Shown: positions 5,298-61,514 of the stretch, piece after piece
How positions within the stretch are numbered: position 1 is the first letter of the stretch
Layout: each line of letters begins with the position of its first letter
DNA from: Sphaerodactylus townsendi
Lineage: Eukaryota
Reading direction: 5' to 3'
DNA length: 64,000 bases
Assembly: GCF_021028975.2 (NCBI RefSeq)
Contig: NC_059439.1
Location: 22,506,001-22,570,000, forward strand
The notes under the pieces: model-generated
What the model was told of the DNA's origin: nothing
Database searches by the model: none
Seen by the model: only the letters and a program-made list of their open reading frames with translations
Translations under genes and position numbers: made by a program

Positions 5298-5610
5298 GAC
5301 TGAGTCCCTACAGACACCTTAAAAGTTGGTGGAATGGAGAGAGTTCTGTGATTAGGCCAAGGAATGTTGAAATCAGAAATTTTGAAATCTGTGTTGCACT
5401 GTGATATTTTCAGTATAAGTGGTTTTCCAAATTGTTGCTTCCTTTGTGCTGGCTCCTGCAGTATTGATGTGGTGACTGCGTGGCATCATGCTTGGTAGCA
5501 GAGTCAGTTGTGTCCCCGGCTTGAAGTGTATTGCACAGTGGCTTCATTTTAAGAGGTGGAGGTTTGTAGGGTTTTCCGGGCTGTGTGGCCGTGGTCTGAT
5601 AGATCTTGTT

Positions 5611-5651
5611 CCTAACATTTTGCCTGCATCTGTGGCTGGCATCTTCAGAGG
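5611..5651 (-). ncRNA. Penelope-type minimal hammerhead motif, core mutated (GAAA>AAAA)
   Basis: - strand CCT CTGAAGA TGCCAGCCACAGATGCAGGC AAAA TGTT AGG, inside a PLE terminal fragment (~5570-5690). Confidence 0.6.
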
Positions 5652-5981
5652 TGTATCACAGAGAGAAGTCTATTACACAGTGTCCAGTGATTGAGCAGGC
5701 TTCATGTGTAGGAGCAATGGTGAGACACAGTAAGCCCCTCCAAGTTCTATGGTGGGAAAAATTATTTTTTCCCCACCATAAATTTCAATGGGGCTTGCAG
5801 TTATGCCCAGCTGCCTCAGTGCTGGAGATATTATTGAGGGCTCTTGCGTGTGTCTTGCTCTGGGTGGGGGCACTTATTTTCTGTAGGGCTGCTGGTGTGA
5901 GTCTCCTGAAAGGAACCAGCCAGCTTGGCTAAAGTTTACGTGGGAGGGGCAAATGCTGTGGGCATCCATTGGAATGTGAAC

Positions 5982-14200: not shown

Positions 14201-15212
14201 TTACTGTGGACCTACAAAGAGAGGTTTTCTTAACTTTTTGATATTTTGCACACACTGCTTCATGAATATCCTTGTTTCTGAGGCTAAGTAAATTAGGTGG
14301 ATTCAGGACTGGGGGTAAAAGCAGCATATAAAAAAACAGCAGAGCAGGTCGACGGCAATTGGGAGAGGAGAGGGGCTTTGGGCGGGCCTCATGTATGAAA
14401 ACCAGCTGTGAGAATGAAATAAGGAAAACTTGCATCAAATTAGGGGGGAATGCAAGTAGAGAGGAGCTTTTGTATCTTTCGCTCCCTGAACTGATGGAAT
14501 TCCTTTCAGCATGGCTGAGAAGATGTAGCCATAGGAAACAAAGATGAACACAAAGGCAAGAAGGGAATCACAATTAATCCAAGAACAAATATCAGGACTT
14601 GATTAAGCTTCTGCTTATCCGTTGCAAAGAGATCTTTTTTGTAGCTGAGGGATATCACAAGAAAAAACTGCTCAATAATATTGGACCACACAGAAGTTTA
14701 AAACTAAATGTAATACTAGTTTCTGCTAAAAGCATGGGATCCAGCACTGCTGGTCCAGGAAGCAGCTGCCAGGTGAGAGCAGGTTTCCCAGTTCATGATT
14801 AACATATACTGTAGAGGATGGCAAATTGCTACATAGCGGTCATAAGCCATGATGGTAAAAGCAGAGCTAGCTCAGCACCAGCAAAAGTTATCACTAAGAA
14901 AATCTGTGCAGCACACCCATAGAAAGGTGAGATCAGCTTGCTGTTTGTTAAAGGAGGCAACCATGGATTTGGGAACAGTGGGTGGAAATAAAGCATATAA
15001 TATCTGAAGAAGGATAGAAGTTCACTTAGAAAAAAAAAGTACATAGGGATGTGAAGCTGGTGACTGAGGAACACCAGTGTGATTATGAGAACATTCCCAG
15101 AGAGGGCTATGACATATATGGACAGAAATATCACAAAATGCAATATCTGTCCATTGGGGTCCTCAGAAAAACCCTTCAGAAGGAACTCCATAACTGTGGA
15201 TTGGTTTGACAT
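14201..15212 (-). pseudogene. Olfactory receptor family-14-like, frameshifted as assembled (copy B1); possibly intact in reality
   Basis: Starts MSNQSTVMEFLLKGFSEDPNGQILHF like 19149-20093, then carries many small indels (1012 bp vs 945 bp). Homologous stop at 14201-14203. Confidence 0.8.
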
Positions 15213-17000: not shown

Positions 17001-17017
17001 TGATTAGCCCTGAGGGA
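17001..17017. promoter_or_regulatory. Candidate homeodomain + O/E (EBF) composite site, OR B1 promoter; paralog at 22285-22301
   Basis: TGATTA-G-CCCTGAGGGA (B1) and TGATTA-G-TCTTCAGGGA (B2), about 220-260 bp upstream (- strand) of conserved CAG|GTA donors at 16740 and 22063. Confidence 0.45.
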
Positions 17018-18349
17018 GTCAGATTTATACCTTATTGATTATGGATGAGCACAGGGGGTAACAATAGACCTGCTGGATGTTTCTCTAAGGACATGCTGCA
17101 TGCAAGCTGGATGGCCAGCATTTTCTTCTTCTTCTTACTCTACAAGCCCCAGATTGCTAAAACAGCATCCTGCAGTCCTGAGCAACCTCACTGATACCTA
17201 CTGCTCTGATGGGAAAACCTGATGACATTTCTGTGAATGGCAGATATGGGCTCAGTCAATCACAATCTCCCATACTAGCCAAGGCAATCAGATGTCATGC
17301 AGCCTTCTTTTATGTCATAAACTTTCCTGGAATTGCAGCACTACTAACCAGAATATAGGAAGAAAAGACTTGCCAGCAATGCAACTCCGCAGGGCTAGTG
17401 GCTCAGGGCATATGAACAATCACCTGCTGATTCCAAAAATCAATTCTCTGTGGCTGTTTCCTAAGACTACTTGGACATTGGAAGCAGCTGGGAAGGCACA
17501 GAGCTCAATGTTAGACTATGAGCCCAGCATTCAAATCTGTGGCTTGGCATTTTTTGGACTCAGGTTCAAAAGATCCAAAAAACCTGGAAGAAGTTTTTTT
17601 TTTTAAAAAAAAAAAAGAAAAAGTGGGAGGCTGGTTTCTTTTGGCTTCTTTTGGAAATTTCCAGGTTTTTTAAACCTAAACCTGAAAAATACTGAAAAAA
17701 AAATGGTGCACACCCATAGTATCTAGTCTAGGGGTAATTACATCACCTCCATACTTCTCCCCAAAATAAAAAAAGTGTTCTCCAATCATTCACAGAGAAC
17801 ATACTTAGCTTTCTTGACTGCCATACCAGGCGCAGAGCACCTATTTTTACTCCCAGTTGTTTCAGATCTTTCCCTATTACAGGAATCAAATCTTGATTTT
17901 TCTGTGGCACCAGGAATGGCTATAGATTGTTTAAAGAGAAAAAACCCCCTGAAAGTAGGATTCATTCCATGATTTTTCTATACGTACAATCAATTCATAT
18001 GAAAACGGATTTCTAATGTAGTATTTAATGTACAGCAAGTCTATGTTCATTAATCTATCATTCCTGCATTCCACTATAAAAAGGCAAGTTGAAATAATGG
18101 GTTAAATTAGCACTTTATTAATGACTGACTAGTCATAGCAATGCCACTTCACAGCTTCTTCAGTGTGGGGTACTGTAATTAATAGTAGTCAAATAGGCTA
18201 CCAGCCTTCAGATTAACTAGCTCACCAGATAAACACTTCAGCCCTCTTTATGTTGTTGATTTCTCTGCTGCTTCTCCATGCAGCCAGTATGAAGCAGCAT
18301 ACAAAGTAAAACACAACATGAACATAGAGTCTGTAAAGGTTGAAACAAG

Positions 18350-18822
18350 GGCTCTTTCCACACGAACCATAAACAGCGCCCTGGGGACAGCAAAAACGCT
18401 GTCCCCAGGGAGCCGTTCACACGGGGGGCACAGCTTCTGAGCAGCCGTTTCCCCACCTCGCTTCCCCAGCAAGGTTTTGGGAAAACGGCAGCTTCCAGTT
18501 GCTGCCATGCGAATGGCAGCGGCTGGAAGGCGCCATCCCTCCCCCCTTTCCCCATCGCGGCCATCTGTTTCTGCGGCCATCTGCCGCGTCGCCAAGGCCT
18601 GGGGACACGACCCCCTGCCCTGCGACTCCGGAGCAGTCTAGCAGGGCAGGGGTGTCAGCCTTGGTGACTACGCCGGATGGCTGCAGAGATAATTAAGTCG
18701 GTGGAAGCGTTTGGGCAGCGTGGCACTGTCGTCCCGGTAGTTTCAGGAACCGTTCATGCGAACGGTCCCAGGGGGGTTGGGTCAGAGTCATGTACCCCCA
18801 TCGTGGCCGTGCAGAAATGGCC
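18350..18822. mobile_element. GC-rich Harbinger-like non-autonomous element
   Basis: 3-bp TSD AAG; ends GGCTCTTTCCACACG / CGTGCAGAAATGGCC; empty site GTTGAAAC-AAG-GAATG at 13861-13876. Confidence 0.85.
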
Positions 18823-19148
18823 AAGGAATGAAAATAGTAAAAAGTCAGCATACAAATCTCAGCAAGAGCATAAAATTGTATAGCATCTTAAAAGGAGTAT
18901 CCTAGAATAGCTTTCAGGCTACAAGCAAACTGTAAAAAAGCAAGAATTTAGAAGAATCAACCCCTTTGACAGAAAAAAAATGTTTTGATCTGGCACTTAA
19001 TAAACAGTAAAATAGGTGCTCCCTCCCCTTTGCAGACTTTGTCATGACCTGGCACATTTGAATAATCTCCAGGAATTTACCAAAACAATGCTTGCTGTGT
19101 GTATAGATGTGTGTGAGAATCAGTGCTTTTCAGTTCCTTTGTTTTTCT

Positions 19149-20093
19149 TTACCATGGACCTACAAGAAAGTTTTTAACTTTTTTTGATATTTTGCACACT
19201 GCTTCTTGGATATCCTTGTTTCTGAGACTATAAATGATTGGATTCAAGACTGGGGGTAAAACAGCATACAAAATAGCAGAGAGCAGGTCGACAGTGGGAG
19301 AGGAGAGGGCTTTGGGCCTCATGTATGAAAACCCAGCTGTGAGAATAAATAAGGAAAACACTGTCAAGTGGGGAATGCAAGTAGAGAAGGCTTTGTATCT
19401 GCCCTGAACTGATGGAATCTTCAGCACGGCTGAGAAGATGTAGCCATAGGAAGCAAAGATGAACACAAAGCAGAAGGCATCTACAGTGAGTGAAATAACA
19501 AGGATCAGGACTCGATTTGCTTCTGTATCCGTGCAAGAGATCTTTTGTAGCTGAGGGATATCACAGAAAAACTGCTCAATAATATTGGACCCACAGAAGT
19601 TTAAACTAAATGTAATACTAGTTTCTACTACAGCATGGATCACACTGCTGGTCCAGGAAGCAGCTGCCAGGTGAGAGCAGGTTTCCCAGTTCATGATTAA
19701 CATATACTGTAGAGGATGGCAAATTGCTACATAGCGGTCATAAGCCATGATGGTAAGCAGAGCTAGCTCACCACCTGCAAAAGTCATCACTAAGAAAATC
19801 TGGGCAACACACCCATAGAAAGAGATCAGCTTGCTGTTTGATAAGGAGGCGGCCATGGATTTGGGAACAGTGGTGGAAATAAAGCATATATCTGAGAATG
19901 ATAAGTTCAGCAGAAAAAAGTACATAGGGGTGTGAAGCTGCTGATTGAACAACACCAGTGTGATTATGAGAGCATTCCCAGACAGGGCTATGACATAAAT
20001 TGACAGAAATATCACAAAATGCAGTATCTGTCCATTGGGGTCCTCAGAAAAACCCTTCAGAAGGAACTCCATAACTGTGGATTGGTTTGACAT
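19149..20093 (-). CDS. Olfactory receptor, class II, family-14-like, intact 314 aa (copy B2)
   Basis: Motifs [44 protein letters not shown]; N-Q-S sequon at the N-terminus; acceptor TTCTTTTCACAG ending at 20113 on the - strand. Confidence 0.97.
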   Translation of the reverse strand: MSNQSTVMEFLLKGFSEDPNGQILHFVIFLSIYVIALSGNALIITLVLFNQQLHTPMYFFLLNLSFSDICFISTTVPKSMAASLSNSKLISFYGCVAQIFLVMTFAGGELALLTIMAYDRYVAICHPLQYMLIMNWETCSHLAAASWTSSVIHAVVETSITFSLNFCGSNIIEQFFCDIPQLQKISCTDTEANRVLILVISLTVDAFCFVFIFASYGYIFSAVLKIPSVQGRYKAFSTCIPHLTVFSLFILTAGFSYMRPKALSSPTVDLLSAILYAVLPPVLNPIIYSLRNKDIQEAVCKISKKVKNFLVGPW

Positions 20094-20233
20094 TTGGTTT
20101 GCTTGAAATATTCTGTGAAAAGAAGGAAAGTCATTAATGGAGGAAATGTTTGAAGAAACATAGTAATCTACTTAAACTATTGATGGTCAAGACACAATCA
20201 GTTTCTGGCAACCATATAAGGTTTTCAAACCAA

Positions 20234-20373
20234 GGCTGATTCCGCATGGGCCAAAAACAGCAGTGTGAAAACAGTGTGAAAACAGTATAAACCCTTTTAC
20301 ACTGTTTTAAACCCTTTTACATTATTTTCACCCCGTTTTCACACTGCTGTTTTTGGCCCATGCGGAATCAGAC
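20234..20373. mobile_element. Palindromic Harbinger-like MITE (second copy 53325-53464, TAA TSD)
   Basis: GGCTGATTCCGCATGGGCCAAAAACAGCAGTGTGAAA and its reverse complement; absent at the B1 site (~15350). Confidence 0.8.
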
Positions 20374-21164
20374 ATAGAGACAAAAAGAGGTGGTTTGTCA
20401 TTGTCTTTGCATATTGTCTTTGCATACTCATTGTGGATTTCCTTGGTAGTCTCCCAACCAAATACTAACCAGTATTTTCCTTATTTATTCTAACAGCTGA
20501 TTACTTTTGAGATCCAATGAGATCAGATTAACTTGGACAATTCATGTCAGTGGGTTACACTATTATATGCTGATCAATATTCAGGGTAATGTAGTCCAAT
20601 GCAAAGTTACACTCAAATTTACTGAAGTCAAAGGGCTTAGAACAATATAATTCTGACCAACATCCCTTTCAGACTAGCTCTATAAATTGTTTTGGCTTAT
20701 GGAAGAAAATGAATTTTAAAAATATTTCTAAAGATATTTTTTATAGAAAAAACCTCTTAGATGTACACCTAACATGGTGATGGAGTTTGTGAGGTAAGGG
20801 TATGTGTCAGTGAAGCTGAGATCTATACTGTGAAGGAGTTCAGACTCTGTCAAAAGGCTAAACTCCTATCAGAGTTACTCAAGATGGGGTGGTCACAGCT
20901 AAGACGACAGAGTAAAATGCATGTACCCCCTTTAGGAAGAAATGGCCATATCAGCAGAAGAAAACGAACAATTCAAATTGTGATGGAGACCAAGAAATCC
21001 TTGAAGGGTAGCTACTGAGCAGCAGAAGCAGTGGAAGGTGAAACTGGTGGAGATTCTTTTACAGAGAATGGCAGTGACACTTTGGGTAACTCTGGTTAGT
21101 ACGATACAGAAGGTGGCAATGGTAAACTACTTCTGATCATCTCTTGCCAGGAAAAAGAAGTATA

Positions 21165-21447
21165 AGAAGAAGAAGAGTTTGGATTTGTATCCCATCTTTT
21201 TTCTCCTGTAAGGAGACTCATGGTGGCTTAAAAACTCCTCCCCACAACAGTCACCTTATGAGGAAGGTGGGCCTGAGAGAGTTCTGAATAACTGTGACTA
21301 ACCCAAGGTCATCCAACAGGAATGTAGGAGTGTGGAAATACATCTTGTTCACCAGAGAAGCCTCTTCCTCTCAGGTGTAGGAGTGGGGAATCAAACTGAT
21401 TCTCCAGATTAGAATCCACCTGCTCTTAATCACAATGCCATGTTGGC
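21165..21447 (-). mobile_element. tRNA-derived SINE (Squam3-like); further copies 22398-22646 (+), 42752-42948 (-), 46792-47072 (-)
   Basis: (CTT)n tail, A/B-box head, homology to the young copy at 62339-62836. Confidence 0.75.
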
Positions 21448-22984
21448 TTTCATCTGGAACCAATGATGTTTCATTTTTGTCTTTGGAAACTATAGCAGAT
21501 TTAAGGAGCACTTATTAAAGGAAAGCAAGATTCCAATGATTGTTTAAACACAGCATGCATTATACTATAGTTTTAATATTGTAATTTATCTATAATAGTG
21601 TATTAGTTTGCCACATCTACTTCTCGCAGCATCAAGAAGAATACAGAAATCAAACTGAACTAATATTTCCTGTTTCTTTGACTAAAGAAGGTTGATCCTT
21701 GGAAGAAAGGAAAGAATCTTCATCTTTAACAGAGTATGATGAACAACAACATACAAAATATGGCTGTTATGTTTTTCTTGAAGATGACAACAAAGAAAAA
21801 AACCCTAATCTATTATCTGCAGGATAATTATTTTTTTAAAAAATGTTACGGTTACTTTATTATTATGCTTTTTATTCAAGATATGCACTGTCATGTTTGA
21901 AAGTCACAAAAACACTGTTTTGAACCAAACATTTGAATGGACAGACTCATTGATCCTTTTTTTTAAAAAAAAATCCTCCCAATGTTTTATTTCTGTTAAA
22001 TCTACCATAAATCATCATGTTGCTATGATCAAATGACTGGAGGAAAAAAGTTTTTACATGTACCTGTTGTTGTTTTTTCATTTGTTCCTAGAAATAAGGA
22101 GATGGAAACACATCAGACAAATTTAGCCATGCAAATTCTGAAAAGTGATGTAAGGGCTGAGTCTGTCGAACTATGTATTATATCTCAGGAGCAGATACAG
22201 AAGAACTAATTAACACTGTTGCTTTTCAACTCTCTAAAGATTTATCAGAATGGGGACCTTACTGTTCAGAGATTGGAAATGTTCTGATTAGTCTTCAGGG
22301 AACCAGATTTATACCTCACTGATGGTTGATGAGCATAGTCATAACAATAAAGTTGCTGGATGTTTCTCTATGGACATGCTGCATGCAAGGTAGATGACCC
22401 ATGTGGTGTAATAGTTAAGAGTAGGTGGATTCTAATCTGGAGAACAGGTTGAATTCCCCACTCCTCCACCTGAATGGCAAAGTCTTATCTGGTGAACCAG
22501 ATGTTCCTGGTGAAACAGGAACACTCTCAGCTCCACCTACCTTACAAGGAGTCTGTTGTGGGGAGAGGAAGGGAAAGGAGCCATGAGTCTACTTACAGGA
22601 GAGAAAAGTGGGGTATACATCAAAACCCGTATTCTTATTATTATTCTACAAGCCCCAGATTGCTAAGTAAGCATCCTGACATCCTGAGCAACCTCACTGA
22701 CACCTACTGCTTCAATAGGAAAACCTGATGACATTTCTGTGAATGGCAGATATCCATATTGGCCAAGGTCATCAGATGTCATGCAGCCTTCCATTACGTC
22801 ATAAGCCTCTGTGGAATTGCAGCACTATTAACGTGAAGACAGGAAGGGAAGACTTGCCAGCAATGCAACTTCACAGAGCTAGTGGCTTGGGGCATATGGA
22901 CACTCACAAGGCACTAGGGCTTCCAACCATCAGGTGGTTAATAAAAATCTTCTGGAATTCCACATTATCTCTATTCCCCTAGAG

Positions 22985-26079: not shown

Positions 26080-29000
26080 GGTTAGAGTGTCAGACTAGGA
26101 TGTGGGAGAATCAGCTTTAAATCTTTACTCCACCATTGAAGCTCATTGGGTAATCTTGGGCCAGTCACATACTTTGAGCCTAAAATACCTCACAACATTC
26201 TTGTGAGAATTGTAAGCCATTGTGGGTTCCTTTGAAAGAAAAGTGGGGTATAAAGGAAGTAAATGAATGAATGAATGAATGAACAGTTTCCAAACATTCT
26301 GAATTGCTTTGCCTTGAGAAAGATTCAAGGTGAAGAATGCACTTGGAGTAAAGTGAGGGGTCATTCATGAGTACTTGAGACAAAAATGAGATGTGTAAAC
26401 TTTGGAGAGCTGTAAGATACCCTTTTAGAAATCTCTTCCCCATAGGTACTTGCTCCAGGATTTTCAGAATTCTCAAGCATTTGAGCACACTGATGTTTCT
26501 CTCCTCCCAAATTAGCTGACATCCATCTGCTCTTAACAGCTCACTTCTGGATTTGTTTGTGTGTGTTTTCTCTCCCCTTTTGATTGAAATGTATGTGTAA
26601 AGTGTCATCAAGTCTCAGCTGACTTGTAGCGCCCCCCCCCCCCAGGTTTTCAAGGCAAAAGACATTCAGAGGCAGTTTGCCATGCCCTGCCTCCATGAGG
26701 GCTGAGAGAGTTCTAAGAGAACTGTAAAAGACCAAAAGTTCTCCAGATTAGAGTTTTCCACTCTTAACAGCTACACCACATTAGCTCCCTAGATCCAAGG
26801 ACCACAAGTTTATGAAAATATGCAGTGCCGGTACTAGTACACGTATGTGCACATGTGTGTGTGTGTGGCATGTATGAGCATCTGTTGTCTCCATCACAGT
26901 GAAGAGAAATCTAACAAAGCTGTCTGTGCTGCCCTTCTTCCTAATAGAGACCTGAAGCCGCTTACAACGTTTTCCTCTCCTCCATTTTATCCTCACAACG
27001 GTCTTATAAGGTAAGTTTATTGGAGAATGTTTGATCTCTTTGCCAGCAATAGGGGCCTCCTTCCTGCCCTTCCTGAAGCACCTGTGGAAACGGTGAGCCT
27101 GTTCCCATATGGGATTGCAATGCTCGAGACCAACAAGAGTTTCAGGGTATAAGCTTTCAAAAGCCAAAACTCCCTCAGGGAGCTTATATCCTAAAATTCT
27201 TGCTACTTTCTATGGTGCTTCTGGATTCAAATCTAACTGGGCTCAAATCTAATTGTTCTACTGAAGACCAGCATGGCTCCCTTCTGAAACGGAGTGAGTT
27301 TTGCATGTGTATGCCTACATCCATCTGTAGGAAAGGGGCAATACGTGTTCTCTTTAAAAATTAAACTGAGGACCAGGAACTGGATGAGTAATTCAAGTTT
27401 AGGGTTAAAATCACAAAGTCTGCTCTATATTTATTGAACTTAATGTGAGAATTACTGAACATACATATCAAAAAAGATATGTATGCTGTTCAGAGTTTCA
27501 ATGTGTGTTCACTGTAACTTGCAAATCCTCAGATCTATGCTTCTCTAAGTTCAATTAAATGTTCTTCTTGAGTCAGAATTTTAACATTTATCTTTCTGTT
27601 TTCTTCCAGAGTTTTTAATAGCTAAAAAAATGGCTAACGAAACATCCATCTCAGAGTTCCTGCTCCTTGAATTCTCTGTGGTACGGGAACATCAGATCCT
27701 TCACTTCTTTTTATTTCTGGCATTGTACCTAGCCACAGTCACAGGGAATCTCCTCATCATCTCTGCAGTGGCTTTTGACTGTCATTTGCACACTCCTATG
27801 TACTTCTTTCTCATGAATTTGGCCTTGCAGGACCTTGGCTCAGTTTCAGTCATTATCCCCAAATCCATGTTCAATTCCCTCTTGAATACCAGAGACATTT
27901 CTTATTCTGGATGTGTCGTTCAAGTTTTCTTTTTTGTGTTCTTTGTGGGGTCTGATTTTTTTCTCCTCACTGTTATGGCATATGACCGGTATGTTGCCAT
28001 TTGCAATCCCTTACAATATGAAGCAGTGATGAACAGGCAAGCTTGTACCCAAATGGTTGTCAGTGTATGGATCACGGGCCTTCTTTATGGTGCACTGCAC
28101 ACAGGTGGCACTTTTGCTGCAACTTTCTGCTCCAATGTTGTCAATCAGTTCTACTGTGAAATCCCACAGTTGCTTAAGATCTCATGTGGTGGCTCAAATG
28201 TCATTGAAGTTGGTGCTCTTGCAGTCAGTGTGATCGTAGAGTTTGGTTGTTTTGTCTTCATCATTGTTACATATGTGCTGATCTTTTCTACGGTGCTGAG
28301 AATGCCCTCTATCCAGGGGAGGCAAAAGGCCTTTTCCACTTGCCTACCACATCTCATTGTTTTCTCTACATTTATAGTCACTGGGTGGTTTGCTTACCTG
28401 AGGCCTCCCTCTCAAACACCGTCTGACCTGGATTTGGCATTAACTGTGGTCTATACTTTTGTCCCACCCATGATGAATCCCATTATTTATAGCATGAGGA
28501 ACAAGGATATCAAGGTTGCCCTGTCAAAACTATTTGTTGGGTTGGACTCAGCTGAGAAAATCTTGCCTAGTTTTTGTGTGTCTGTCTGAATGTTGTGTCT
28601 GTTCGGTTACTCTCTTTTACATGGGGGACAGATATTTCAGTTGGGCCTACAGTTGAGGTAGAAACAAAATCTGGTTCTCTTACTTTAGACACCAGTAAAT
28701 ATTCCAGTGCCAGGAATGTTAGAATATTTAGCTGCTATATCTTCTTTCTGCCAAACTTCCATGTAAACATTCCTGAGATAAATCAGTGGTAAACTCTGAA
28801 TTCTGTATGAAATGGAAAAGGCTGTATTATAGAACAACTTATATATATTTTTCAAGGAATTTTGTTCCTCATCAAAAAGCTACACATCTCCATGAGTTGT
28901 CAAATTAAATGCTCCATGGCAGGGAAGTTGACTTAAAAGATAATTACCAATAAAGCAGGGTATATTTTGGCTCCTTTTTTCCTCTAATTTGTTTTTAAAA

Positions 29001-31432: not shown

Positions 31433-31653
31433 ATGGCAACCTTATTTTTGTGGCTGCTGCTGCTGGGGGTGATTCCAGCTCAACGGAAGACACAGGCAAA
31501 CATGTGTCGCATGAGTGATCCACTCTTTACTCCACATGAATATTATCAGATTGGTGACCTTATAGTCGGTGGAATGACTTCTCAGCTTTCCATTTATTTT
31601 GAAGCCTTATCCTTTGTAGAACATCCTAAGACTAAGTTGATTTTGGAACCAAT
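31433..31653 (+). CDS. V2R gene 1 exon 1 (signal peptide)
   Basis: [13 protein letters not shown]...[13 protein letters not shown]; donor GTAAGG at 31654; 221 bp. Confidence 0.88.
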
Positions 31654-34600
31654 GTAAGGACACATCATAATGTACTGTCGTTGTCGAAGGGTGTAACAGA
31701 CTTCCCTCTGTGACACACCTCTGAAGATGCCAGCCACAGATGCAGGCGAAACGTTAGGCACAAGATCCACCAGCCCACGGCCACACAGCCCGGAAAACCC
31801 ACCACAACCAACACATCATAACCATTGCAAATGGATAATACAAGTATTGCTTTGTAGCCATACCACGCAAATTTATATTGATTGAACCCATCATTACTTT
31901 CACAACATTTTCTGGGTGTTTTTTTTTTTTGCTAATTAATAGCTTTTTTGCTTTGGGGTGCCAAATAATCAGTATTGTCAGAATATGCAATGATGTCAAC
32001 TGACATCAGTCTTAATGGTATGGGGTTTTCAAGGCAAGAGACATTCAGAGGTGATTTGCCATGACCAGAAACCCTGTCATGATGCTGTCATTTCTTGGAA
32101 GTCTTACAGTTCGACTTCGCTTCTGAGATCTAACAAGATGAGGCTAGCTTAGGCTGTTTGTATCATTTGTATAATTAATGGATGAATTGATAGCAACAGT
32201 GGAAAATCCAAAAAGCAATTGAGGGGGGGAATCGAGAAATATAAAAAAAGAGAAAGGGAATTTTCCCCTCATCTTGTTTTGATGCCAAACATTGTAGCCA
32301 CCATATCATATTATACAAGAATGTGTTGTTTTTTCATTAATTTGCTTAATGTGCTATATTATATTATAGAATACTTTGTAGTTTTTCTTAATTTGCTTTT
32401 GTGTTCATTACAATTTCAGCTAGTATTCTATATTGCACCATGGTTTTTGCTCCTTCTTTTCTAATTTATCTGCTTTTTCTTTTCTTTTCTCCTCTCAACT
32501 TGGTTTATTTTTTTTAAAAAAAATAGTAGCATTAGGACTTTTTTTTTCATTTTCCTCTACGCCAATTCAATTTCTCTTAGGCTCATTCCGCACATGCAGA
32601 ATAATGCACTTTCAAACTGCTTTCAGTGCTCTTTGAAGCTGTGCGGAATAGCAAAATCCACTAGCAAACAGTTGTGAAAGTGGCTTGAAAACACATTATT
32701 TTGCGTGTGCGGAAGGTACCTTACTTTATTAATTCACTGGTATCTTTTCATTTGCTGAGATTTATATGCTTTGATGTAACATGTAGATGGATAGGAACTA
32801 GACCAGCAGTTTTCCTTATATCATTCTCTTACCTTGGATTTTTGTCAATGATGAAAGTTAGTTGTGTTCAGGACGCATTGTTTTGCTGTGTATTTGCTGT
32901 TGCTTTTTATATATCTTTCTAGAGATGGCAAATAATACATTCAGCTGGAGCCAGACTATTTCTCTGCTGGTACGTTGGGCTGGAGCCAGACTATTTTTCT
33001 GCTGGTGAAAAAGGGTGGAGGGAATCCACTTCAGTCACCCCAAAAAAATGTTTTGCTGAGATTGTGGCACCTGTTTGAATGAAAGGCATGTAATAGGGGC
33101 TATGCTAAGGATATAACACAAGCTTGACCTAAAATCTGGCAGTATCCAAGCTGTTACTATTATGCAAAGTTTTCCCCAAAACACTTTAAATGAGCATGCC
33201 TTAATTTACCACAAAGCAGTTTTGGTAAAGGTTCATGAGAAGAAATAAACAAACAATGGAGTTGTATTCCTTGATGTTTATGTGAACTATTGTAAAATTT
33301 GAAATTGCTTCCTGCAATTTCATTTGTTTTGAAAATAGGCATATCACTGAGCTATTGATAATATGGTAAACATGTCTTGAATCTAATGCTCTCATTTTTT
33401 CAATACAAACTTAGAAGGTATTTAAGAAATTTTGAGATGTAACTTTTGTTGTAGTGCAACACCGAAGAACTACCAACATGTCCTTGCCCTGGCATACGCT
33501 GTGAAGGAGATTAATGACAACCCCAAGATTTTACCCAATAACAGCCTTGGTTTCCACATCTATGACAGCTACTTCAATGCCAAGTTGACCTCTCAGAATA
33601 CCTTGAACTTCTTCTGCACCTCGAAAAGGATTATCCCTAACTACAGTTGTAACAACCAGAAGAATTTAATGGCTGTCATTGGAGGCCTTGATTCTGAAAC
33701 CTCTCTCCACATAGACAACATCATTAGAATATACAAAATCCCACAGGTAAGAGTGTGTATAAATAACTCACAATCAGGACATTTCTGCTTATACTTACCC
33801 TGTAGTCTATAGAGACATTTTTCAGAGGAAATACTCAAAACAGAAGCTTCCATAGTTTATTTTTCCTAGTATGTAGCAATATCATTAAACATTACTTTAT
33901 TAATAATCAGTACCACACCCCTCAGATGTTTTTGTAAACCATGTGCTTTTCTGAAGTTTGTAGAAAGATCTGTCTGATCTGTTCATGGCTCTAATCTTCA
34001 GATTTAAGTATCCACAGATAGTGACAGATTGAGAATTAGGCATGTTGATAAATTATGATTATGTTTGAATATTGACATGGACATATGCTTAAATATCTCC
34101 TGTTCAGCTGGAACAATTTGTTTGATTTTTGCTTAGGTTACCTATAGTTTCTTTGTCCCATTGACAGATGAAAAAAACCACTTTCCTTCCATCTACCAGA
34201 TGGTCCCCAATGAAGCCAACCAGTACAAGGGGATTCTCCAACTACTTCTCCATTTCCAGTGGACATGGATTGGGATTGTTGCATTGAGTGGTGATAAAGG
34301 AGAAAGATTTGTGCAGATCTTGACACCATTGTTGTCCCAGAATGGCATCTGTCCTGCCTTCATCCATTGGCTACCAACCTTGACTTCCACTGAAGACATG
34401 ACTGATGTGTTTTACATATCAAGACCAAGAGAGTATTTGACTCTTTTTCTAACCAAAATGGAAGTCAATGTCTTTACCATAATGGCAGATACATATACAA
34501 TGTTTGTTTTAAAATGGTTTCTATATTTGACACAAATGGAAGATATGCCAGCAATAGTCACGGGTAAGGTATGGATTTTGACTGCAGAGTGGGATTTCTC

Positions 34601-37600
34601 CTTTCAAGCACTGGACAGGCTTTTGGATATTAAAGTATTTCATGGTGCTTTGTCCTTTAGCGTTAAGACCAATAAAATAGCTGGGTTCCAAAATTTCATT
34701 CGCACTATAAATTCCAACTGGCCTGAACAAGATGACTTTATCAGGATCTTCTGGGAGCCAGCATTTAACTGTTTATTGTCAGATTCCAAACCGGATGGAG
34801 GCACAGACAAATGCACTGGGCAGGAGAAACTTGAGAACCTCCCAACTCCTTTTTTTGAGATGACCATGACTGCCCAGAGCTACAGCATCTACAATGCTGT
34901 CCTTACTATAGCACAAGCGCTGCATAGCATGTACTCAGTGAAACAAAAATACACTTTAACATTTGTGGGAGGAGACACAAAGAAGTCCTTCAGTTCACAA
35001 CCTTGGCAGGTAATATTTTGCATCTATAGCAATGCAGCAATAATATCTAGCAGGTTAATAAAGACACAAATCTAACCCTGCTTATGCCCATTTTAAAGCA
35101 TTTAATGCAATTCATACCATTGATTTAACTTCTGACTCTTGGTGGCAATTGGAAAAGTCCAAATCCCTTTGTTATTATGGTGCCACACTTTTGACTTTCC
35201 CCTGTGTAATGTGAATGATGACAACTAATTGAACTGACAAGTATTTCACAGGAACATCATCCAAACAGAAGAATTAATCCATATTTCTACAGCACAGGTC
35301 ATAACATTTCAAATTTCTGTGCAAATAGTTGTACAACATTTGCAGTTCAGGGAGGGCTGTATGATTTGATATGTGTGGATCCTGCATGTGTGAGACTTCA
35401 TTATCTTGATTCATCCCTGCTAGGCAAGATCAAATTTTGCTTATACCCACAGGCAAGCATCATCTAAAATGTTCATTTGCCTCTTCCCATCCAGCTTCAT
35501 GCTTTCCTGAGAAGCATCTCATTTAACAACAGTGCTGGGGACCACATTTACTTTAATGAGAAAGGTGAACTAGAAACTGGATTTGACATTATCAACTGGA
35601 TTACTTTCCCAAACCAAAGTTTTCAAAAAGTGAAAGTAGGAGGGATGGCTTCTGAGACTTCACCTGGCACAGAGTTCACCATTAACAAGGAACTCATCAC
35701 ATGGCACAGGGCATTTAANNNNNNNNNNNNNNNNNNNNNNNNNNNNNNNNNNNNNNNNNNNNNNNNNNNNNNNNNNNNNNNNNNNNNNNNNNNNNNNNNN
35801 NNNNNNNNNNNNNNNNNNNNNNNNNNNNNNNNNNNNNNNNNNNNNNNNNNNNNNNNNNNNNNNNNNNNNNNNNNNNNNNNNNNNNNNNNNNNNNNNNNNN
35901 NNNNNNNNNNNNNNNNNNNNNNNNNNNNNNNNNNNNNNNNNNNNNNNNNNNNNNNNNNNNNNNNNNNNNNNNNNNNNNNNNNNNNNNNNNNNNNNNNNNN
36001 NNNNNNNNNNNNNNNNNNNNNNNNNNNNNNNNNNNNNNNNNNNNNNNNNNNNNNNNNNNNNNNNNNNNNNNNNNNNNNNNNNNNGAAAGTACTACTCCCT
36101 TGATAATCTCTTCCATGCTGCTGGGTAAAGTTCTATGGCATAGTGTTACTCTGTTCATGACCTGAGTTAGATCCTGATGGAAGTTGAGTTCAGTGTTGAC
36201 TCAGCCTTCCATCCTTTTGCTCCTTGCTGTTCATTGGCCATACTCATTTTGGTAAAATGAGTATCCAGCTTGCTGAGGCTAAAGTGAAGCTGACTGGTAC
36301 AGACAATGACAAGCCACCCAATAAACATATACCTGACTTCTCTATTTAATTCCACAATAGTGTTTGTGTATTCGATACATCAATGTTTAGAGATGGCAAA
36401 GGGCTGGATGTGAACAAATAGACTGGAACTGAATTCAGACAAGGTGAAAGACTTGTTGACTGAATGTAGACCTGAATCTACAATTAAATTTACATCATGT
36501 TACCCTTCAATCAAAATGAATGAGGGTCTGATCATATTCCTGCATTCTGCCATTTCCAGTCAAAATTATATTGATTGCATGTGACAGAGGAAATCAAAGG
36601 AAAATTAAATAAATATGTTATTGTCTCCTTATGAAGGTTCAGCCACTTTCAGTGTGTAATGACAACTGCCATTCAGGTTACAGTAGAAGAAAGAAGGAAG
36701 AGATGTTCTGTTGCTATGATTGTGCTCCATGCCCAGAAGGAAAGATTTCAGACAAGATAGGTAGGATATACACAAACATACAGAAGGAAAGTGGTGAATA
36801 TTTAAGTAAATAACATGGGCTCTGTTGTGTCTACGCCCATGGGATCTTCTTGGGTGACATCTGAGATTAGAGTGGTTTACTGCAAGAGAAAGGTTCCATG
36901 TCCAATTGTCATTAGGAAACACTCTATGTGGCCCTTGGAAGCTTCTGTTGCTTTTAAATCACAAATGGATCTTAATGATGTATGCAGAGCAGCTACGTGG
37001 TCCACTTCTTTGACTTTTATTTGACTGTAGACATCAATGCCAGGGCTGAGATGCCGTGGACCAAGCTATATTGCAATCTGTGGTTCACTTGCATACCACA
37101 TTTTACTCCAGAGCATACAAGCTTGCCATTATCCCATGTGGGACTACACAGAGGCCACAACAATGAAAAACATCGTTGCTTACTATAACTGTTTGTTCAT
37201 GTAGTGATCAGACACATGTCCCTACCACCTTCCCTTCGGTGTCATATAGTGAAAGTGGTAGCTCCTCCCGGTGGTGAAGGAAGATCTGGAGAGACAGAGT
37301 GCACCACCACTCCTCCCTAGCCACATGACTTGGGCAGGGAAAGTTGTTGTCTCAGGCCTGTGACTCAGGAATCCTCAATCTAAAATGCTGTCAAAACTGT
37401 GCTGTAGCTGGACTGCGCAAGCACAGTCCCACATGTGCCTGCACAGAGGACCACTAGATGAACATACAATTATGGTAAGCAATGCTATTTATTCCACTGA
37501 GGACACTAAATTTCTCCAAGGCATTCCAATACAAATCACTAGTGATTCTCAGCAAATTTGATTTCTCTACCATCATTGCTGGTAGGGTATTTTGATGATT

Positions 37601-38582
37601 GTCATTTTACTTGCACAGGATAAGACATGTGATGGTATATGGCATGATTCACTGAGTTGGTTTTTTTCCCTTCTTCTCAGACATGGATGATTGTGTTGAA
37701 TGCCCAGAAGATGAGTATCCAAACAAGGATCAAAATCAATGTGTTCCTAAGATTCTGAACTTCCTGTCCTATGATGAGTCTTTAGGGATCACTTTAGCTC
37801 TTCTATCTTTCTCTTTTTCTCTGATCACAGCCCTTGTGCTTGGAATTTTCATTAAGCACAGGAACACCCCCATTGTCAAAGCAAACAATCGAGATCTAAC
37901 CTATGGTCTACTCATCTCCCTCATGATTTGCTTCCTTTGCTCCTTGCTGTTCATTGGCCAGCCTCATACAGGGACGTGCCTTCTACGCCAAACATCTTTT
38001 GGCATCATCTTTTCAGTAGCTATTTCTTCTCTGTTGGCAAAAACTGTCACTGTGGTTCTAGTTTTCATGGCCAATAAACCAGGAAGTCAGATAATGAAAT
38101 GGGTGGGAAAACTGCTGGCATATTCAATTGTTCTTTCTTGCTCTGTTATTCAAGTGGTAATTTGTATTCTGTGGCTCTACATAGCGCCTCCATTCCCCAG
38201 AATGGATACAAAGTCCATGAATGAAGAAATTGTACTGGAATGTAATGAAGGGTCTGCTGTAATGTTTTACTGTGTTTTGGGCTACATGGGATTCTTGGCT
38301 AGTGTAACTTTTACTGTGGCTTTCTTTGCTCGCAAGTTGCCCAACACATTTAATGAAATCAAGTTAATCACTTTCAGCATGATGGTGTTTTGCAGTGTTT
38401 GGTCATCCTTTGTTCCAGCTTACCTGAGTGCGAAAGGAAAACATATAGTAGCTGTGGAGATCTTCTCTATCTTAGCTTCCAGTGCTGGATTACTTGTTTG
38501 TATCTTTCCTCCCAAACTCTACATAATTATTCTACGACCTGAGTTGAATAGCAAGGATCAGCTGCTATTGAGAAATAAGTAG
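31433..38582 (+). CDS. Vomeronasal type-2 receptor (V2R, class C GPCR) gene 1, six exons, about 879 aa
   Basis: Exons 31433-31653, 33455-33746, 34137-35009, 35495-~35722 (donor inside N gap, inferred from the 228-bp paralog exon), 36637-36760, 37681-38582. Visible GT-AG sites keep frame. Signal peptide, Venus-flytrap domain ([17 protein letters not shown]), Cys-rich [12 protein letters not shown], 7TM ([18 protein letters not shown]). Confidence 0.93.
31671..31810 (+). mobile_element. 140-bp Penelope-like element terminal cassette in V2R1 intron 1
   Basis: Flanked by the 11-bp direct repeat ACACATCATAA (31660-31670, 31811-31821); homologous to the PLE tail at 40300-40403. Confidence 0.8.
31718..31758 (+). 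ncRNA. Minimal type I hammerhead ribozyme motif (Penelope-type), intact core
   Basis: CCT CTGAAGA T GCCAGC CACAGAT GCAGGC GAAA CG TT AGG: helix I CCT/AGG, core CUGAnGA...GAAA...UH, palindromic AACGTT in place of helix III. Confidence 0.75.
33455..33746 (+). CDS. V2R gene 1 exon 2
   Basis: [20 protein letters not shown]...YKIPQ; 292 bp with AG/GT boundaries. Confidence 0.93.
34137..35009 (+). CDS. V2R gene 1 exon 3
   Basis: VTYSF...[11 protein letters not shown]...QPWQ; 873 bp with AG/GT boundaries. Confidence 0.93.
35495..35722 (+). CDS. V2R gene 1 exon 4 (last 4 nt inferred inside gap)
   Basis: [16 protein letters not shown]...TWHRAFN; runs into the N gap at 35719. Confidence 0.88.
35719..36084. 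other. Assembly gap covering the V2R1 exon 4 donor
   Basis: Run of N. Confidence 0.99.
36637..36760 (+). CDS. V2R gene 1 exon 5 (cysteine-rich domain)
   Basis: [15 protein letters not shown]...[18 protein letters not shown]; 124 bp with AG/GT boundaries. Confidence 0.92.
37681..38582 (+). CDS. V2R gene 1 exon 6 (7TM domain)
   Basis: [11 protein letters not shown]...[15 protein letters not shown]...stop; acceptor TTCTTCTCAG ends at 37680. Confidence 0.95.
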
Positions 38583-39854: not shown

Positions 39855-40404
39855 GATAAGATGAATGATAACCTGGGCACAGAATATTATTTTAAAACAC
39901 AAATTCTGGATCACTCTGACAACCACTATGTCAGACTACACAGAAAAGCCATTGAAATCTGCAAGCACATGGACAATTTCAACAGAAGGGAAGAAACCAT
40001 AAAAATGAACAAAATTTGGCCACCAATACTGGAAAACACTAGAATCAAGACAGTGACTAATGACACCACCCAGACCAGGGGTCTTCAAACTATGGCCCTC
40101 CAGATGTTCATGGACTACAATTCCCATCAGCCCTGCCACTTGACCATGCTGGCAGGGGCTGATGGGAATTGTAGTCCATGAACATCTGGAGGGCCATAGT
40201 TTGAAGACCCCTGACCCAGACAAAGGATGTCTCCAGGTGGCAAATGGTTCTTTCTCCCAGCCTGGACATTCCACAGGTATATATACTCCACTTTTTACTA
40301 CAGTCAGATCCTCTGAAGATGCCAGCCACAGATGCAGGTGAAATGTCAGGAGAAAATGCTACTAGAACCCATCCATACAGCCCGGAAACCACACAACACC
40401 CCAG
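39855..40404 (+). mobile_element. Penelope-like element 3' end (C-terminus after GIY-YIG plus terminal repeat), interrupted by hAT MITE 40076-40213
   Basis: ILDHSDNHYVRLHRKAIEICKHMDNFNRREE; MITE with 8-bp TSD ACCCAGAC; hammerhead motif at 40310-40350. Confidence 0.8.
40310..40350 (+). ncRNA. Minimal hammerhead motif (Penelope-type), CpG-decayed but core retained
   Basis: CCT CTGAAGA TGCCAGCCACAGATGCAGGT GAAA TG TC AGG. Confidence 0.68.
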
Positions 40405-59400: not shown

Positions 59401-61514
59401 TCATATTCGTCATCAGCCAAACTGGACTTCCATTTTTCTAAAAGACATTTTCTTTTTTCTGATAATTTCCTCAACCTCTCTTGTTAACCATGGTGGCTTT
59501 CTTTTGGACTGGGTGCTGCCTTTTCTAACCTGTGGAACACATTCCAGCTGAGCTTTTATTACTGTGTTTTTAAATAACCTCCAAGCATCCTGGACAGTTT
59601 TGACTCTCTTGATTTTCCCTTTCAGCTTCCTGTGCACTATCCCCCTCATCTTTGAGAAATTTCCCTTTCTGAAGGCGAATGTAGCTACATTAGTAGTTGC
59701 CACTTGTTCGCATGCTGAGATACTGAATCTGACAGCATTGTGGTCGCTGTTCCCTATAGGCTCAACAACACTGACTTCCTGCACCAGGTCCTGGGTCCCA
59801 CATAGAATTAGATCTAGGATCACCTCTCCCCTGGTTGGTTCCACAACCATCTGCTCTAAGCCACAGTCATTTAGCATATCCAGGAATGCTCTCTCCTTAC
59901 TATGACCTGAACATGCATTTTTCCAGTTTATATGGGGATAGTTAAAATCACCCATTACCACTACATTTTTGTTTTTTTGTTGGCCTCTCTAATTTCTTTT
60001 TCCATCTCAGAATCCTCTTGTGCACTTTGGTCAGGGGGACGATAATATATTCCTAATATTAAACTGTCCTTCACACCTGGTATTGATATCCACAGTGATT
60101 CTGTAGGGGAACCAGCTTTCCTTGCATTGTCTATTTTATGTGATACTATGCTCTCTTTGATGTAAAGGGCAACTCCACCCCCAATGCGCCCTGTCCTATC
60201 CTTCCTATAGAGCCTGTAGCCTGGTATAACAGCATCCCACTGGTTCTCCTCATTCCACCATGTCTCTGGGTGCTGTGTGGTTTCCGGGCTGTATGGCCAT
60301 GTTCTAGCAGCATTCTCTCCTGACGTTTCGCCTGCATCTGTGGCTGGCATCTTCAGAGTTTTAGAACACCTTTGTTTCATTCATGAAGTGACGATATTTT
60401 GTAGCAGAACTTGAATGCTGTTGAAGTTCACTGTCCCAAATCCTTTGCTTGATTTCAGACCTAGCTTTGCAATACCCTGAAACTAAAATTGCAGTTGGCA
60501 TACCAACAGGTTTGACTTTGGCTGGCCTGTATTGAAAGAGGAGAAAATAATACTTGACATATTTTAATTCTTATATTATATAATTAAAATCAAATGTTTC
60601 CTTTTTTTTCAGATATGGATGACTGTGTCAAATGCCCAGATAACGAGTACCCAAACAAGAACCAAGATCATTGTCTTCTTAAGGTTCTAAACTTCCTGTC
60701 TTATGGTGAGCCTTTAGGGATTGCTTTAGCTGTTTTGGCTGTGTCTTTTTCTCTGACCACAGCTTTGGTTCTTGGACTCTTCATCAAATACCAGAATACT
60801 CTGATTGTCAAAGCCAACAATCGAGACCTCACATACTGTCTACTCATCTCCCTTTTCTTCTGCTTCCTCTGCTCCTTGCTTTTCATTGGCCAGCCTCGGA
60901 CTCCAACCTGCCTTCTACGACAAACATCTTTCAGCATCATCTTCTCAGTGGCTGTTTCTTCCTTATTGGCCAAAACCATTACTGTGGTTCTGGCGTTTAT
61001 GGCCAGTAAGCCTGGAAGCCAAATAAGAAAATGGGTGGGGAAAAAACTAGCATGTGCAGTTGTGGTTCTCTGTTCCACGATTCAAATTGGAGGTTGCTGT
61101 GTGTGGCTCTACGTAGCTCCTCCGTTCCCAGACTTGGACCCATATTCTATAACTACTGAAATGGTAGCTCAGTGTAATGAAGGCTCAGTCATTATGTTCT
61201 ACTGTGTCCTGGGCTACATGGGATTCTTGGCTACTGTCACATTTATTATGGCTTTCTTTGCTCGCAAGCTGCCCAACACATTCAATGAAGCCAAGTTCAT
61301 CACTTTCAGCATGTTGGTGTTTTGCAGTGTTTGGGTGTCCTTTGTGCCAACGTATCTGAGTACGAAGGGAAAGGATATGGTAGCTGTGGAAATCTTTGCA
61401 ATCTTGTCTTCCAGTGCTGGTTTATTGTTTTGTGTCTTTTACCCAAAATGCTATATTATTATTCTGAGGCCTGAGCTGAACAGTAAGAGCTACCTATCCA
61501 TAAAAAATAAGTAA
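41254..61514 (+). CDS. Vomeronasal type-2 receptor (V2R) gene 2, six exons, about 881 aa
   Basis: Exons 41254-41474, 43968-44259, 49482-50357, 53729-53956, 55358-55484, 60613-61514. All GT-AG with the same phases as gene 1; total 2646 nt in frame. Confidence 0.93.
43968..44259 (+). CDS. V2R gene 2 exon 2
   Basis: [20 protein letters not shown]...YKIPQ; 292 bp. Confidence 0.93.
45415..45922. mobile_element. hAT-Charlie non-autonomous element, OC1/OposCharlie1-like ends
   Basis: 8-bp TSD GCCTAAGT; TIRs CAGTGGTGGTGAACCT / ATGTTCGCCATCACTG. Confidence 0.8.
46289..46480 (-). mobile_element. CR1 3' UTR fragment
   Basis: CATAAGAACATAAGAAC tail; near-identical to 57373-57560. Confidence 0.85.
47125..47302. 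mobile_element. Small hAT-like MITE
   Basis: TIRs CAGAGGCGTCGC / GCTACGCCTCTG; imperfect TSD TTTGGAGG / CTTTGAGG. Confidence 0.6.
48556..48991. mobile_element. GC-rich Harbinger-like element truncated by gap
   Basis: Starts GGCCCTTTCCGCATG; homologous to 18350-18822. Confidence 0.75.
48992..49175. other. Assembly gap
   Basis: Run of N. Confidence 0.99.
49482..50357 (+). CDS. V2R gene 2 exon 3
   Basis: VSYSISA...FPSIYQMIP...QPWQ; donor GTAAGA; 876 bp. Confidence 0.93.
53729..53956 (+). CDS. V2R gene 2 exon 4
   Basis: [16 protein letters not shown]...TWHMAFNQ; 228 bp. Confidence 0.93.
55358..55484 (+). CDS. V2R gene 2 exon 5 (cysteine-rich domain; missed by ORF track)
   Basis: [42 protein letters not shown]; acceptor TTGACAG, weak donor GTTCGA; 127 bp. 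Confidence 0.9.
55837..55950 (-). mobile_element. L2 3'-end fragment
   Basis: (TAAA)n tail and GGGCTCTGGGCGG motif shared with 11101-11180. Confidence 0.65.
56517..57034. mobile_element. GC-rich Harbinger-like non-autonomous element
   Basis: TCA|GTCCGTTTCCGC...GCGGAAGCGGCC|TCA, 3-bp TSD. Confidence 0.75.
57368..60268 (-). mobile_element. CR1 LINE, 5'-truncated in the endonuclease, ORF2 broken by frameshifts, antisense in V2R2 intron 5
   Basis: APE motifs ETWW, GGGVALY, GIYYRPP, MGDFN, SDHN; RT motifs [26 protein letters not shown]; (TTCTTATG)n tail. Confidence 0.95.
60319..60358 (-). ncRNA. Minimal hammerhead motif (Penelope-type) in a PLE fragment 60269-60358 abutting the CR1 5' end
   Basis: - strand CT CTGAAGA TGCCAGCCACAGATGCAGGC GAAA CG TC AGG; core intact, helix I shortened. 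Confidence 0.68.
60613..61514 (+). CDS. V2R gene 2 exon 6 (7TM domain)
   Basis: [11 protein letters not shown]...[18 protein letters not shown]...[13 protein letters not shown]...stop. Confidence 0.95.

What the first reader, a model, noticed from the sequence alone, without database searches (positions are those of the whole stretch)
31660..31821. Intact-core hammerhead ribozyme cassette inserted sense 17 nt into intron 1 of a V2R gene
Seen: a 140-bp insert (31671-31810) flanked by the 11-bp direct repeat ACACATCATAA, starting 17 nt after the exon 1 donor. It carries CCT-CTGAAGA-T-GCCAGC-CACAGAT-GCAGGC-GAAA-CG-TT-AGG on the transcribed strand, and the paralogous V2R2 intron lacks it. Known: Penelope-like elements encode minimal type I hammerheads whose palindromic helix III (here AACGTT) usually needs dimerisation to cleave. 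Inference: the V2R1 pre-mRNA could be cut next to the 5' splice site, perhaps only in trans with another PLE transcript, which would damp this one receptor. A lone copy with a 3-bp helix I may well be inert.
Basis: partly seen in the sequence, partly recalled or inferred. Interest (0 to 1): 0.7.

Follow-up and report, generated by a model that had tools for sequence, protein, structure and literature searches.

The report
Penelope retrotransposon stub in V2R intron
This insert is a short leftover of a very common lizard jumping gene; its self-cutting RNA motif stands in thousands of identical copies across the genome, and this copy likely does not cut the pheromone-receptor message it sits in, so it is an ordinary passenger.

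Summary
In detail: a 140-bp insert with an 11-bp target duplication, 17 nt into V2R intron 1, carrying a sense minimal hammerhead core (cut site after 31755). It is the truncated end of a Poseidon-type Penelope-like element (PLE): 36 nt of pseudo-LTR, the first 84 nt of the ORF, and a 20-nt inverted tail piece. The 41-nt motif has 2,791 exact copies; the GUC sister form has 9,340.

A regulatory role is not supported. Across 98 V2R genes, intronic copies are 23 sense (7 intact) and 22 antisense (5 intact), p=0.74. Another V2R has a copy 12 nt into an intron. V2R1's readable exons are open, and the insert is shared with two related organisms. The Anolis homologue cuts only with element protein, whose inferred binding region spans the first 172 ORF nt; this copy has 84. 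Its 6-nt palindrome is predicted to pair the cleavage base. No RNA data or cleavage assay was available. The scan has reported such stubs before, in this and other genomes. Verdict: ordinary, probably inert passenger.

The parts
31433..31653 (+). V2R1 exon 1 coding part (signal peptide, start of the extracellular domain)
   Evidence: Open frame; spliced in silico to exons 2-3 it gives a continuous ORF
31654..31659 (+). Intron 1 splice donor (GTAAGG), untouched by the insertion
   Evidence: Same donor type in many V2R paralogs; best match to the donor consensus in 31640-31900
31660..31670 (+). Left copy of the 11-bp target-site duplication
   Evidence: the contig of distant organism E aligns up to 31670 and no further
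31671..31690 (-). Inverted, partly duplicated piece of the element's 3' tail (ORF positions about +105 to +118)
   Evidence: Its reverse complement matches the tail seen in other copies; 13 nt of this region are deleted in organism B
31691..31726 (+). Last 36 nt of the pseudo-LTR upstream of the element's start codon
   Evidence: Shared with the best genomic copies
31718..31758 (+). Minimal type I hammerhead motif, GUU triplet, predicted cut after 31755
   Evidence: 2,791 exact genomic copies
31727..31810 (+). First 28 codons of the PLE ORF, ending at the element's inner 3' end point (+84)
   Evidence: Translation resembles the N-terminus of the Anolis RT/endonuclease protein P0003 (compared by eye)
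31811..31821 (+). Right copy of the target-site duplication
33455..33746 (+). V2R1 exon 2; intron 1 is 1,801 nt and the predicted cut lies 1,699 nt before this exon
   Evidence: ANF_receptor hit
34137..35009 (+). V2R1 exon 3, open
35495..35716 (+). V2R1 exon 4, readable part open (its end is not readable in the window)
36637..36760 (+). V2R1 exon 5 (cysteine-rich), open
37681..38582 (+). V2R1 exon 6 (7TM), open
   Evidence: 7tm_3 hit, E 7e-81
5549..5678 (-). Another GUU-subfamily copy, core broken, outside the V2R genes
40310..40401 (+). GUC-subfamily copy between the two V2R genes, helix II and palindrome broken
60267..60358 (-). GUC-subfamily copy, antisense in V2R2 intron 5

Best explanation
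The insert is a truncated end piece of a high-copy Poseidon-type Penelope-like retrotransposon, and its hammerhead motif is likely a silent passenger that is spliced out with intron 1 without cutting the V2R1 pre-mRNA. Shown: the family identity and copy number, the target duplication, the 3' end at +84 of the element ORF, the inverted tail piece, open host exons, and presence of the left junction in related organisms. Inferred: the element's endonuclease cut the A/T-rich intron start; its RT copied an uncleaved element RNA from the inner start site (+84) back to near the RNA's 5' end; a short second piece primed from the tail was laid down inverted; repair left the 11-bp duplication. The core is intact because the copy is young (2 of 120 letters off the subfamily majority) and partly overlaps the element's own reading frame. 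Cutting would need a second hammerhead or the element's protein within roughly the half minute Pol II needs to reach exon 2 (mammalian rate) plus splicing time; the copy is alone in its transcript and lacks ORF nt 85-172.
For: Copy number: 2,791 exact GUU and 9,340 exact GUC 41-mers, 0 in reversed controls. PLE link: copy L003 is preceded by an ORF end 77% identical to an Anolis 836-aa RT protein, whose N-terminus resembles the insert's 28 codons. Layout typical of PLEs: among 29 other best copies, 18 end at +84 and 11 at +118, and 13 carry an inverted 5' piece, matching the two RT start sites and tail in PMC11167929 and PMC8557442. No orientation or intactness bias in 98 V2R genes: sense 7 intact of 23, antisense 5 of 22, p=0.74. 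Five V2R genes carry an intact sense copy, two of them carry two, and those two have open exons 1-3 and 6. An antisense copy starts 12 nt into another V2R intron. 56 of 63 sampled 3' pieces run across the cut site, 3 end within 3 nt of it. Literature: a single min-HHR showed no cleavage and dimers low cleavage (PMC4209133); the Anolis HHR shows none without protein, and no RNA-seq reads ended at its cut site; slow intronic ribozymes did not affect splicing (Fong 2009 as cited in PMC10919898). Folding: in the 168-nt context helix I probability is 0.001; the 6-bp duplex pairing A14 with U17 is -5.5 against -3.1 kcal/mol for the catalytic 4-bp form.
Against: No cleavage assay and no RNA data. The core is fully intact; only 17 of 86 sampled copies are. 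The insert has persisted at least since organisms A, B and C split. The first sample showed more intact cores among sense copies (7 of 14 against 7 of 45, p=0.014, post hoc), though the new sample gave 0 of 9. The C at 31759 lets helix I extend in a 66-nt fragment (helix I probability 0.34). GUU is a cleavable triplet (PMC3138052). The Anolis hammerhead does cut with protein. The folding model scores all family copies low, so it discriminates poorly. The orientation test has only 45 intronic copies, many in back-to-back pairs, so it would miss a mild bias.
Confidence: 0.88

Rival explanations
1. The hammerhead cuts occasionally, in trans with another element transcript or with help from PLE protein, and lowers V2R1 mRNA.
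For: Intact core on the transcribed strand; thousands of potential partner copies; a cut 102 nt into the intron would have the whole intron's transcription time to act; protein-assisted cleavage exists in Anolis; CPEB3 shows that an intronic ribozyme can tune its host mRNA.
Against: A 4-bp intermolecular helix between separate nuclear transcripts is weak (-3.1 kcal/mol), and the 6-bp mispair is favoured. The copy lacks ORF nt 85-172. No depletion or enrichment of intact sense copies. Even tandem dimers were slow in vitro.
Confidence: 0.05
2. The insert has no ribozyme activity but weakens or delays use of the neighbouring 5' splice site through RNA structure, slightly changing V2R1 output.
For: It begins 17 nt from the donor and forms stable hairpins; some predicted folds pair the first intron letters.
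Against: The donor sequence is unchanged and no better donor lies in the insert; the insert's folding energy is no better than shuffles (z=0.09); the gene stays open and the insert is retained in relatives.
Confidence: 0.06
3. The insert is a member of an independent retrozyme or SINE-like ribozyme family rather than a PLE stub.
For: Short, non-coding in place, and a tandem array of 109-bp units of the same subfamily exists elsewhere (L160).
Against: It is a monomer; it is collinear with the pLTR of a copy that continues into PLE ORF; its ends and inverted piece are PLE insertion marks.
Confidence: 0.01

Closest known systems
PAc, Poseidon element of Anolis carolinensis (Frangieh et al. 2024, PMC11167929)
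   Same: ORF start codon at the start of stem II; cut site 26 nt (PAc) or 29 nt (here) into the ORF; two 3' end points separated by a 30-40-nt tail; A/T-rich target; 77% protein identity of a linked copy to an Anolis RT protein that is likely PAc (identity to PAc itself not shown).
   Different: Here only a 140-bp stub with 84 ORF nt. The subfamily has a GUU triplet; the Anolis protein has Ser at that codon, as the GUC subfamily does (inferred from protein; the paper's figure was not seen).
Minimal type I hammerheads in pLTRs of metazoan PLEs (Cervera and de la Pena 2014, PMC4209133)
   Same: Extra base between positions 9 and 10.1, G10.1-C11.1 pair, palindromic 15.2-16.2, short helix I, thousands of dispersed single motifs per genome.
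   Different: Helix I is 3 bp here against 4-5 bp described for Schistosoma; this lizard subfamily was not among the sequences I saw in the text.
Insertion unit of endonuclease-bearing PLEs (Craig et al. 2021, PMC8557442)
   Same: 5' truncation, inverted 5' piece, tail at one end only.
   Different: The inverted piece is only 20 nt, so no long hairpin locks the motif.
Intronic ribozymes of host genes: CPEB3 HDV-like; RECK and C10orf118 hammerheads (PMC10919898, PMC10761166)
   Same: A ribozyme motif on the sense strand of an intron.
   Different: Those are conserved, active as single motifs (CPEB3 half-life 2-3 min; RECK HHR silences a reporter); this is a young repeat copy with no monomeric helix III.
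Animal non-LTR retrozymes (bioRxiv 10.64898/2026.07.22.740005)
   Same: PLE-derived type I hammerhead repeats; 42-44% of Xenopus copies overlap introns.
   Different: Retrozymes are defined by tandem units; this copy is a monomer with PLE insertion marks.

Membership tests
Penelope/Poseidon PLE fragment | Sequence continues into an RT plus C-terminal GIY-YIG ORF in longer copies | tested here: met
   L003/L159 ORF pieces 77% and 68% identical to the C-terminal part of the RT protein P0003; the GIY-YIG label comes from the motif and position, and from PF01541 on one homologue (P0016), not from a Pfam hit on L003 (one search gave none)
Penelope/Poseidon PLE fragment | Start codon overlapping hammerhead stem II | tested here: met
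   ATG at 31727; 28 codons resemble the P0003 N-terminus
Penelope/Poseidon PLE fragment | Two 3' end points with a 30-40-nt tail; frequent inverted 5' piece | tested here: met
   18 of 29 other copies end at +84, 11 at +118; 13 of 29 have an inverted piece
Penelope/Poseidon PLE fragment | Placement in the Poseidon clade by RT phylogeny | not tested
   No tree built; assignment rests on protein identity to the Anolis element
Minimal type I hammerhead (min-HHR) | Core CUGANGA and GAAA, NUH triplet, G10.1-C11.1 pair, extra base at 9/10.1 | tested here: met
   Sequence, scored
Minimal type I hammerhead (min-HHR) | Palindromic 15-16 positions able to form helix III in a dimer | tested here: met
   ACGU duplex forms, but a 6-bp register that pairs U17 is predicted 2.4 kcal/mol more stable
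Minimal type I hammerhead (min-HHR) | Self-cleavage as dimer or with protein | not testable with these tools
   Needs an in vitro assay
Canonical type I hammerhead (Rfam) | Match to Rfam hammerhead models; stable helix III; loop I-II contacts | tested here: not met
   No hammerhead hit at E<=10; no monomeric helix III in any fold
Functional intronic host ribozyme (CPEB3, RECK type) | Conserved at the orthologous site beyond neutral expectation | tested here: inconclusive
   Left junction present in organisms B and C, likely absent in E; contigs break inside the repeat, so the orthologous cores could not be read
Functional intronic host ribozyme (CPEB3, RECK type) | Active as a single motif on the time scale of splicing | not testable with these tools
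   Predicted unlikely (literature)
Non-LTR retrozyme | At least two tandem units each with a hammerhead | tested here: not met
   Single unit; only sense copy within V2R1

The most novel reading that the evidence does not exclude
Penelope stubs seed V2R introns with latent hammerheads that cut only when element protein or a second copy is present, so retrotransposon activity in vomeronasal neurons would selectively damp particular receptors. V2R1 would be one target; the two V2R genes that carry two intact sense copies around a single exon could cut in cis as a double hammerhead and release that exon.
Probability: 0.04. Interest if true: 0.7.

Novelty: new member of a known kind. Interest (0 to 1): 0.12.

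Why it matters
As it stands it matters little: it is one of thousands of Penelope stubs, and it is usable as a lineage marker (present in organisms A-C, likely absent in E). The count across 98 V2R genes gives a baseline showing that intact sense hammerheads in introns are tolerated. If cleavage in a host intron were shown, it would be a case of a transposon-borne minimal hammerhead tuning a host gene, and would bear on the open question of what these motifs do in vivo.

Tried and rejected
Rfam scan: no hammerhead hit. Pfam on the two L003 ORF pieces: 0 families; identity came from homologues. Protein atlas was not available. Search for a close V2R1 paralog with an empty site: only V2R2 at 76%, so not informative. 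Sequencing runs: no RNA holder listed, which says nothing on expression. Reading the orthologous cores in organisms B and C failed because contigs break in the repeat. The joint across the insert in organism E was not displayed (table cut). Uncovered stretches in runs X4 and X6 were not interpreted. An apparent excess of intact sense copies (p=0.014) did not repeat in 600 kb of new sequence (0 of 9) and intactness tracks copy age (p=0.007): rejected. My automatic 'intact gene' flag (16 of 53) was too strict because of alignment overhang at exon 4 and was not used as a count. The idea that this copy is a spliced retrocopy (lead from e1-8621127) was set aside: the letters 5' of 31691 are inverted tail, not an upstream exon. 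Lunse et al. (PLE hammerheads cleave as dimers) and Fong et al. 2009 are not held and are cited second-hand. The PAc supplements gave no hit for the motif, so its RNA sequence was not seen. A search for 'vomeronasal', 'V2R', 'ribozyme' listed one paper on mouse lncRNAs, not read.

Full report
Observation. Identical 11-bp repeats at 31660-31670 and 31811-31821 flank a 140-bp insert. The exon 1 donor is at 31654, so the insert begins at intron position +18. The hammerhead motif spans 31718-31758 on the gene's strand, with a 3-bp helix I and a GUU triplet whose cut would follow 31755. The core pattern has 3 window matches against 0.07 expected. Rfam finds no hammerhead here, as expected for minimal motifs, which were found with custom descriptors (PMC4209133, parts 1-2 of 4 read).

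Host gene. Six exons of a family C GPCR lie at 31433-38582 (ANF_receptor and 7tm_3 hits). Exons 1-3 splice to a continuous frame; exon 5, exon 6 and the readable part of exon 4 are open. The V2R name rests on this exon layout, the Pfam hits and the large clustered family (150 of 253 candidates scored), and is partly recalled knowledge. V2R2 is too distant to serve as an empty site.

What the insert is. It belongs to a very large repeat family. The exact 41-nt motif occurs 1,392 + 1,399 = 2,791 times, and the form with C at position 17 occurs 4,647 + 4,693 = 9,340 times, with 0 in reversed controls. The two forms mark two subfamilies with different downstream sequence. One close copy, L003, is preceded by the end of an ORF whose pieces are 77% and 68% identical to an 836-aa Anolis reverse-transcriptase protein. 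That protein's N-terminus resembles the 28 codons that start at 31727 inside the hammerhead (by eye). This is the arrangement reported for Poseidon of Anolis: the ORF begins at stem II, reverse transcription starts at two internal sites, and the stretch between them is the 30-40-nt tail (PMC11167929, parts 1-2 of 4 read). Of 29 other best-matching copies, 18 end at +84 and 11 at +118, and 13 have an inverted 5' piece, the layout described for endonuclease-bearing PLEs (PMC8557442, passages). The window copy is a +84 copy whose first 20 nt are an inverted scrap of the tail. It differs from the majority of those copies at 2 of 120 positions; the C at 31759 is shared by 4 of 29.

Age. Contigs of a second sample of organism A and of organisms B and C run from exon 1 into the insert (X2 to 31717, X4 to 31713 with a 13-nt deletion, X5 to 31732; a low-depth contig of D to 31720). 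I infer an empty site in E; the joint itself was not displayed. The orthologous cores could not be read.

Is the position or state special? I annotated 98 V2R genes in 1.864 Mb of fetched cluster sequence plus the window (chosen for V2R density, about 0.1% of the genome). There are 86 motif copies, one per 22 kb. 45 are intronic, in 27 genes: 23 sense (7 intact) and 22 antisense (5 intact), p=0.74; 5 of 41 intergenic copies are intact. The first 1.264 Mb suggested more intact cores among sense copies (7 of 14 against 7 of 45, p=0.014, post hoc and including the focal copy). The next 0.6 Mb gave 0 of 9, and intact copies are simply younger (downstream divergence 0.041 against 0.087, p=0.007). 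Copies are not independent, as many are back-to-back pairs, so a mild bias could be missed. Five genes have an intact sense copy and two have two. The chance that one of about 20 intronic insertions lands within 20 nt of a donor is about 0.22, and an antisense copy does begin 12 nt into intron 2 of another V2R.

Would it cut? Not tested directly. In the literature a single min-HHR showed no cleavage and dimers low cleavage. [quoted passage not shown] The Anolis motif cut only when element protein was added, the minimal RNA for protein activity needed the first 172 ORF nt, and no RNA-seq reads ended at the cut site. This copy has 84 ORF nt. In my sample 56 of 63 3' pieces run at least 10 nt across the cut site, 3 end within 3 nt of it and 4 are unclear (first 1.264 Mb only), so inserted copies came mostly from uncleaved RNA; this is not a rate measurement. 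GUU is listed among cleavable triplets (PMC3138052, passages); that it is slower than GUC is recalled. The cut site is 1,699 nt before exon 2, about 25-30 s at the mammalian Pol II rate quoted in PMC10919898, which also cites Fong 2009 for slow intronic ribozymes having no effect on splicing (passages).

Comparison and verdict. It is a member of the Penelope/Poseidon stub class and of the min-HHR class by sequence. It fails the canonical hammerhead and retrozyme tests. It is not shown to work like the CPEB3 or RECK intronic ribozymes (PMC10761166, passages). Intronic PLE-derived hammerhead repeats are in print as common: 42-44% of Xenopus retrozyme copies overlap introns, with relative depletion from genes (bioRxiv 10.64898/2026.07.22.740005, part 1 of 5 and passages; its supplements are closed). 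My searches listed no paper on a ribozyme in a V2R gene; the library lacks most subscription journals. Earlier scan notes describe the same kind of stub many times, 22 notes in this genome; these are unchecked and not used as support. Verdict: a real, ordinary, probably inert retrotransposon stub.

Noticed in passing
G000:C15 about 24,060,986-24,073,146 (+), copies at 24,069,499 and 24,071,412: A V2R gene with open exons carries two intact sense GUC hammerheads 1.9 kb apart on either side of exon 4. A better candidate for in-cis dimer cleavage than the focal copy; the second copy is preceded by its own inverted twin.
   Followed up: partly
G000:C11 about 11,132,811-11,145,475 (-), copies at 11,133,849 and 11,136,239: A V2R gene with two intact sense GUU hammerheads flanking exon 5; one motif ends 142 nt before exon 6.
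   Followed up: partly
L160:980-1700 (G000:C1:4,702,501 onward): Head-to-tail array of 109-bp pLTR units of the GUU subfamily, at least five motif copies, retrozyme-like.
   Followed up: no
genome-wide: A whole young subfamily has U instead of C at the cleavage position (2,791 exact copies against 9,340). The change also turns Ser to Leu in the element ORF and creates a 6-nt palindrome predicted to lock the dimer; it could be an attenuated ribozyme lineage.
   Followed up: partly
G000:C7 about 113,062,800-113,062,920: Antisense GUC-subfamily stub with a 10-bp duplication that starts at intron position +3 of a V2R exon 2 donor.
   Followed up: partly
window 32576-32719 and 32963-32997: A second repeat and a short duplication in V2R1 intron 1 are skipped by contigs of organisms B and C, so they are younger than the Penelope stub.
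   Followed up: no
window 31564 (run X6): One sample of organism C has an 18-nt in-frame duplication in V2R1 exon 1 not seen in sample X5.
   Followed up: no
L003, L007, L021, L022, about 45-80 nt upstream of the element start codon: 5' ends of many GUU copies cluster about 36-48 nt upstream of the start codon, some 30 nt after a TATA-like stretch, suggesting the element's transcription start.
   Followed up: no
window 13868-17423 and 18822-22907; 232-3232 and 26080-28717: Local segmental duplications, including an olfactory-receptor-like ORF on the minus strand at 19152-20171 with a broken paralog near 14124-15290 (named by recalled motifs).
   Followed up: no
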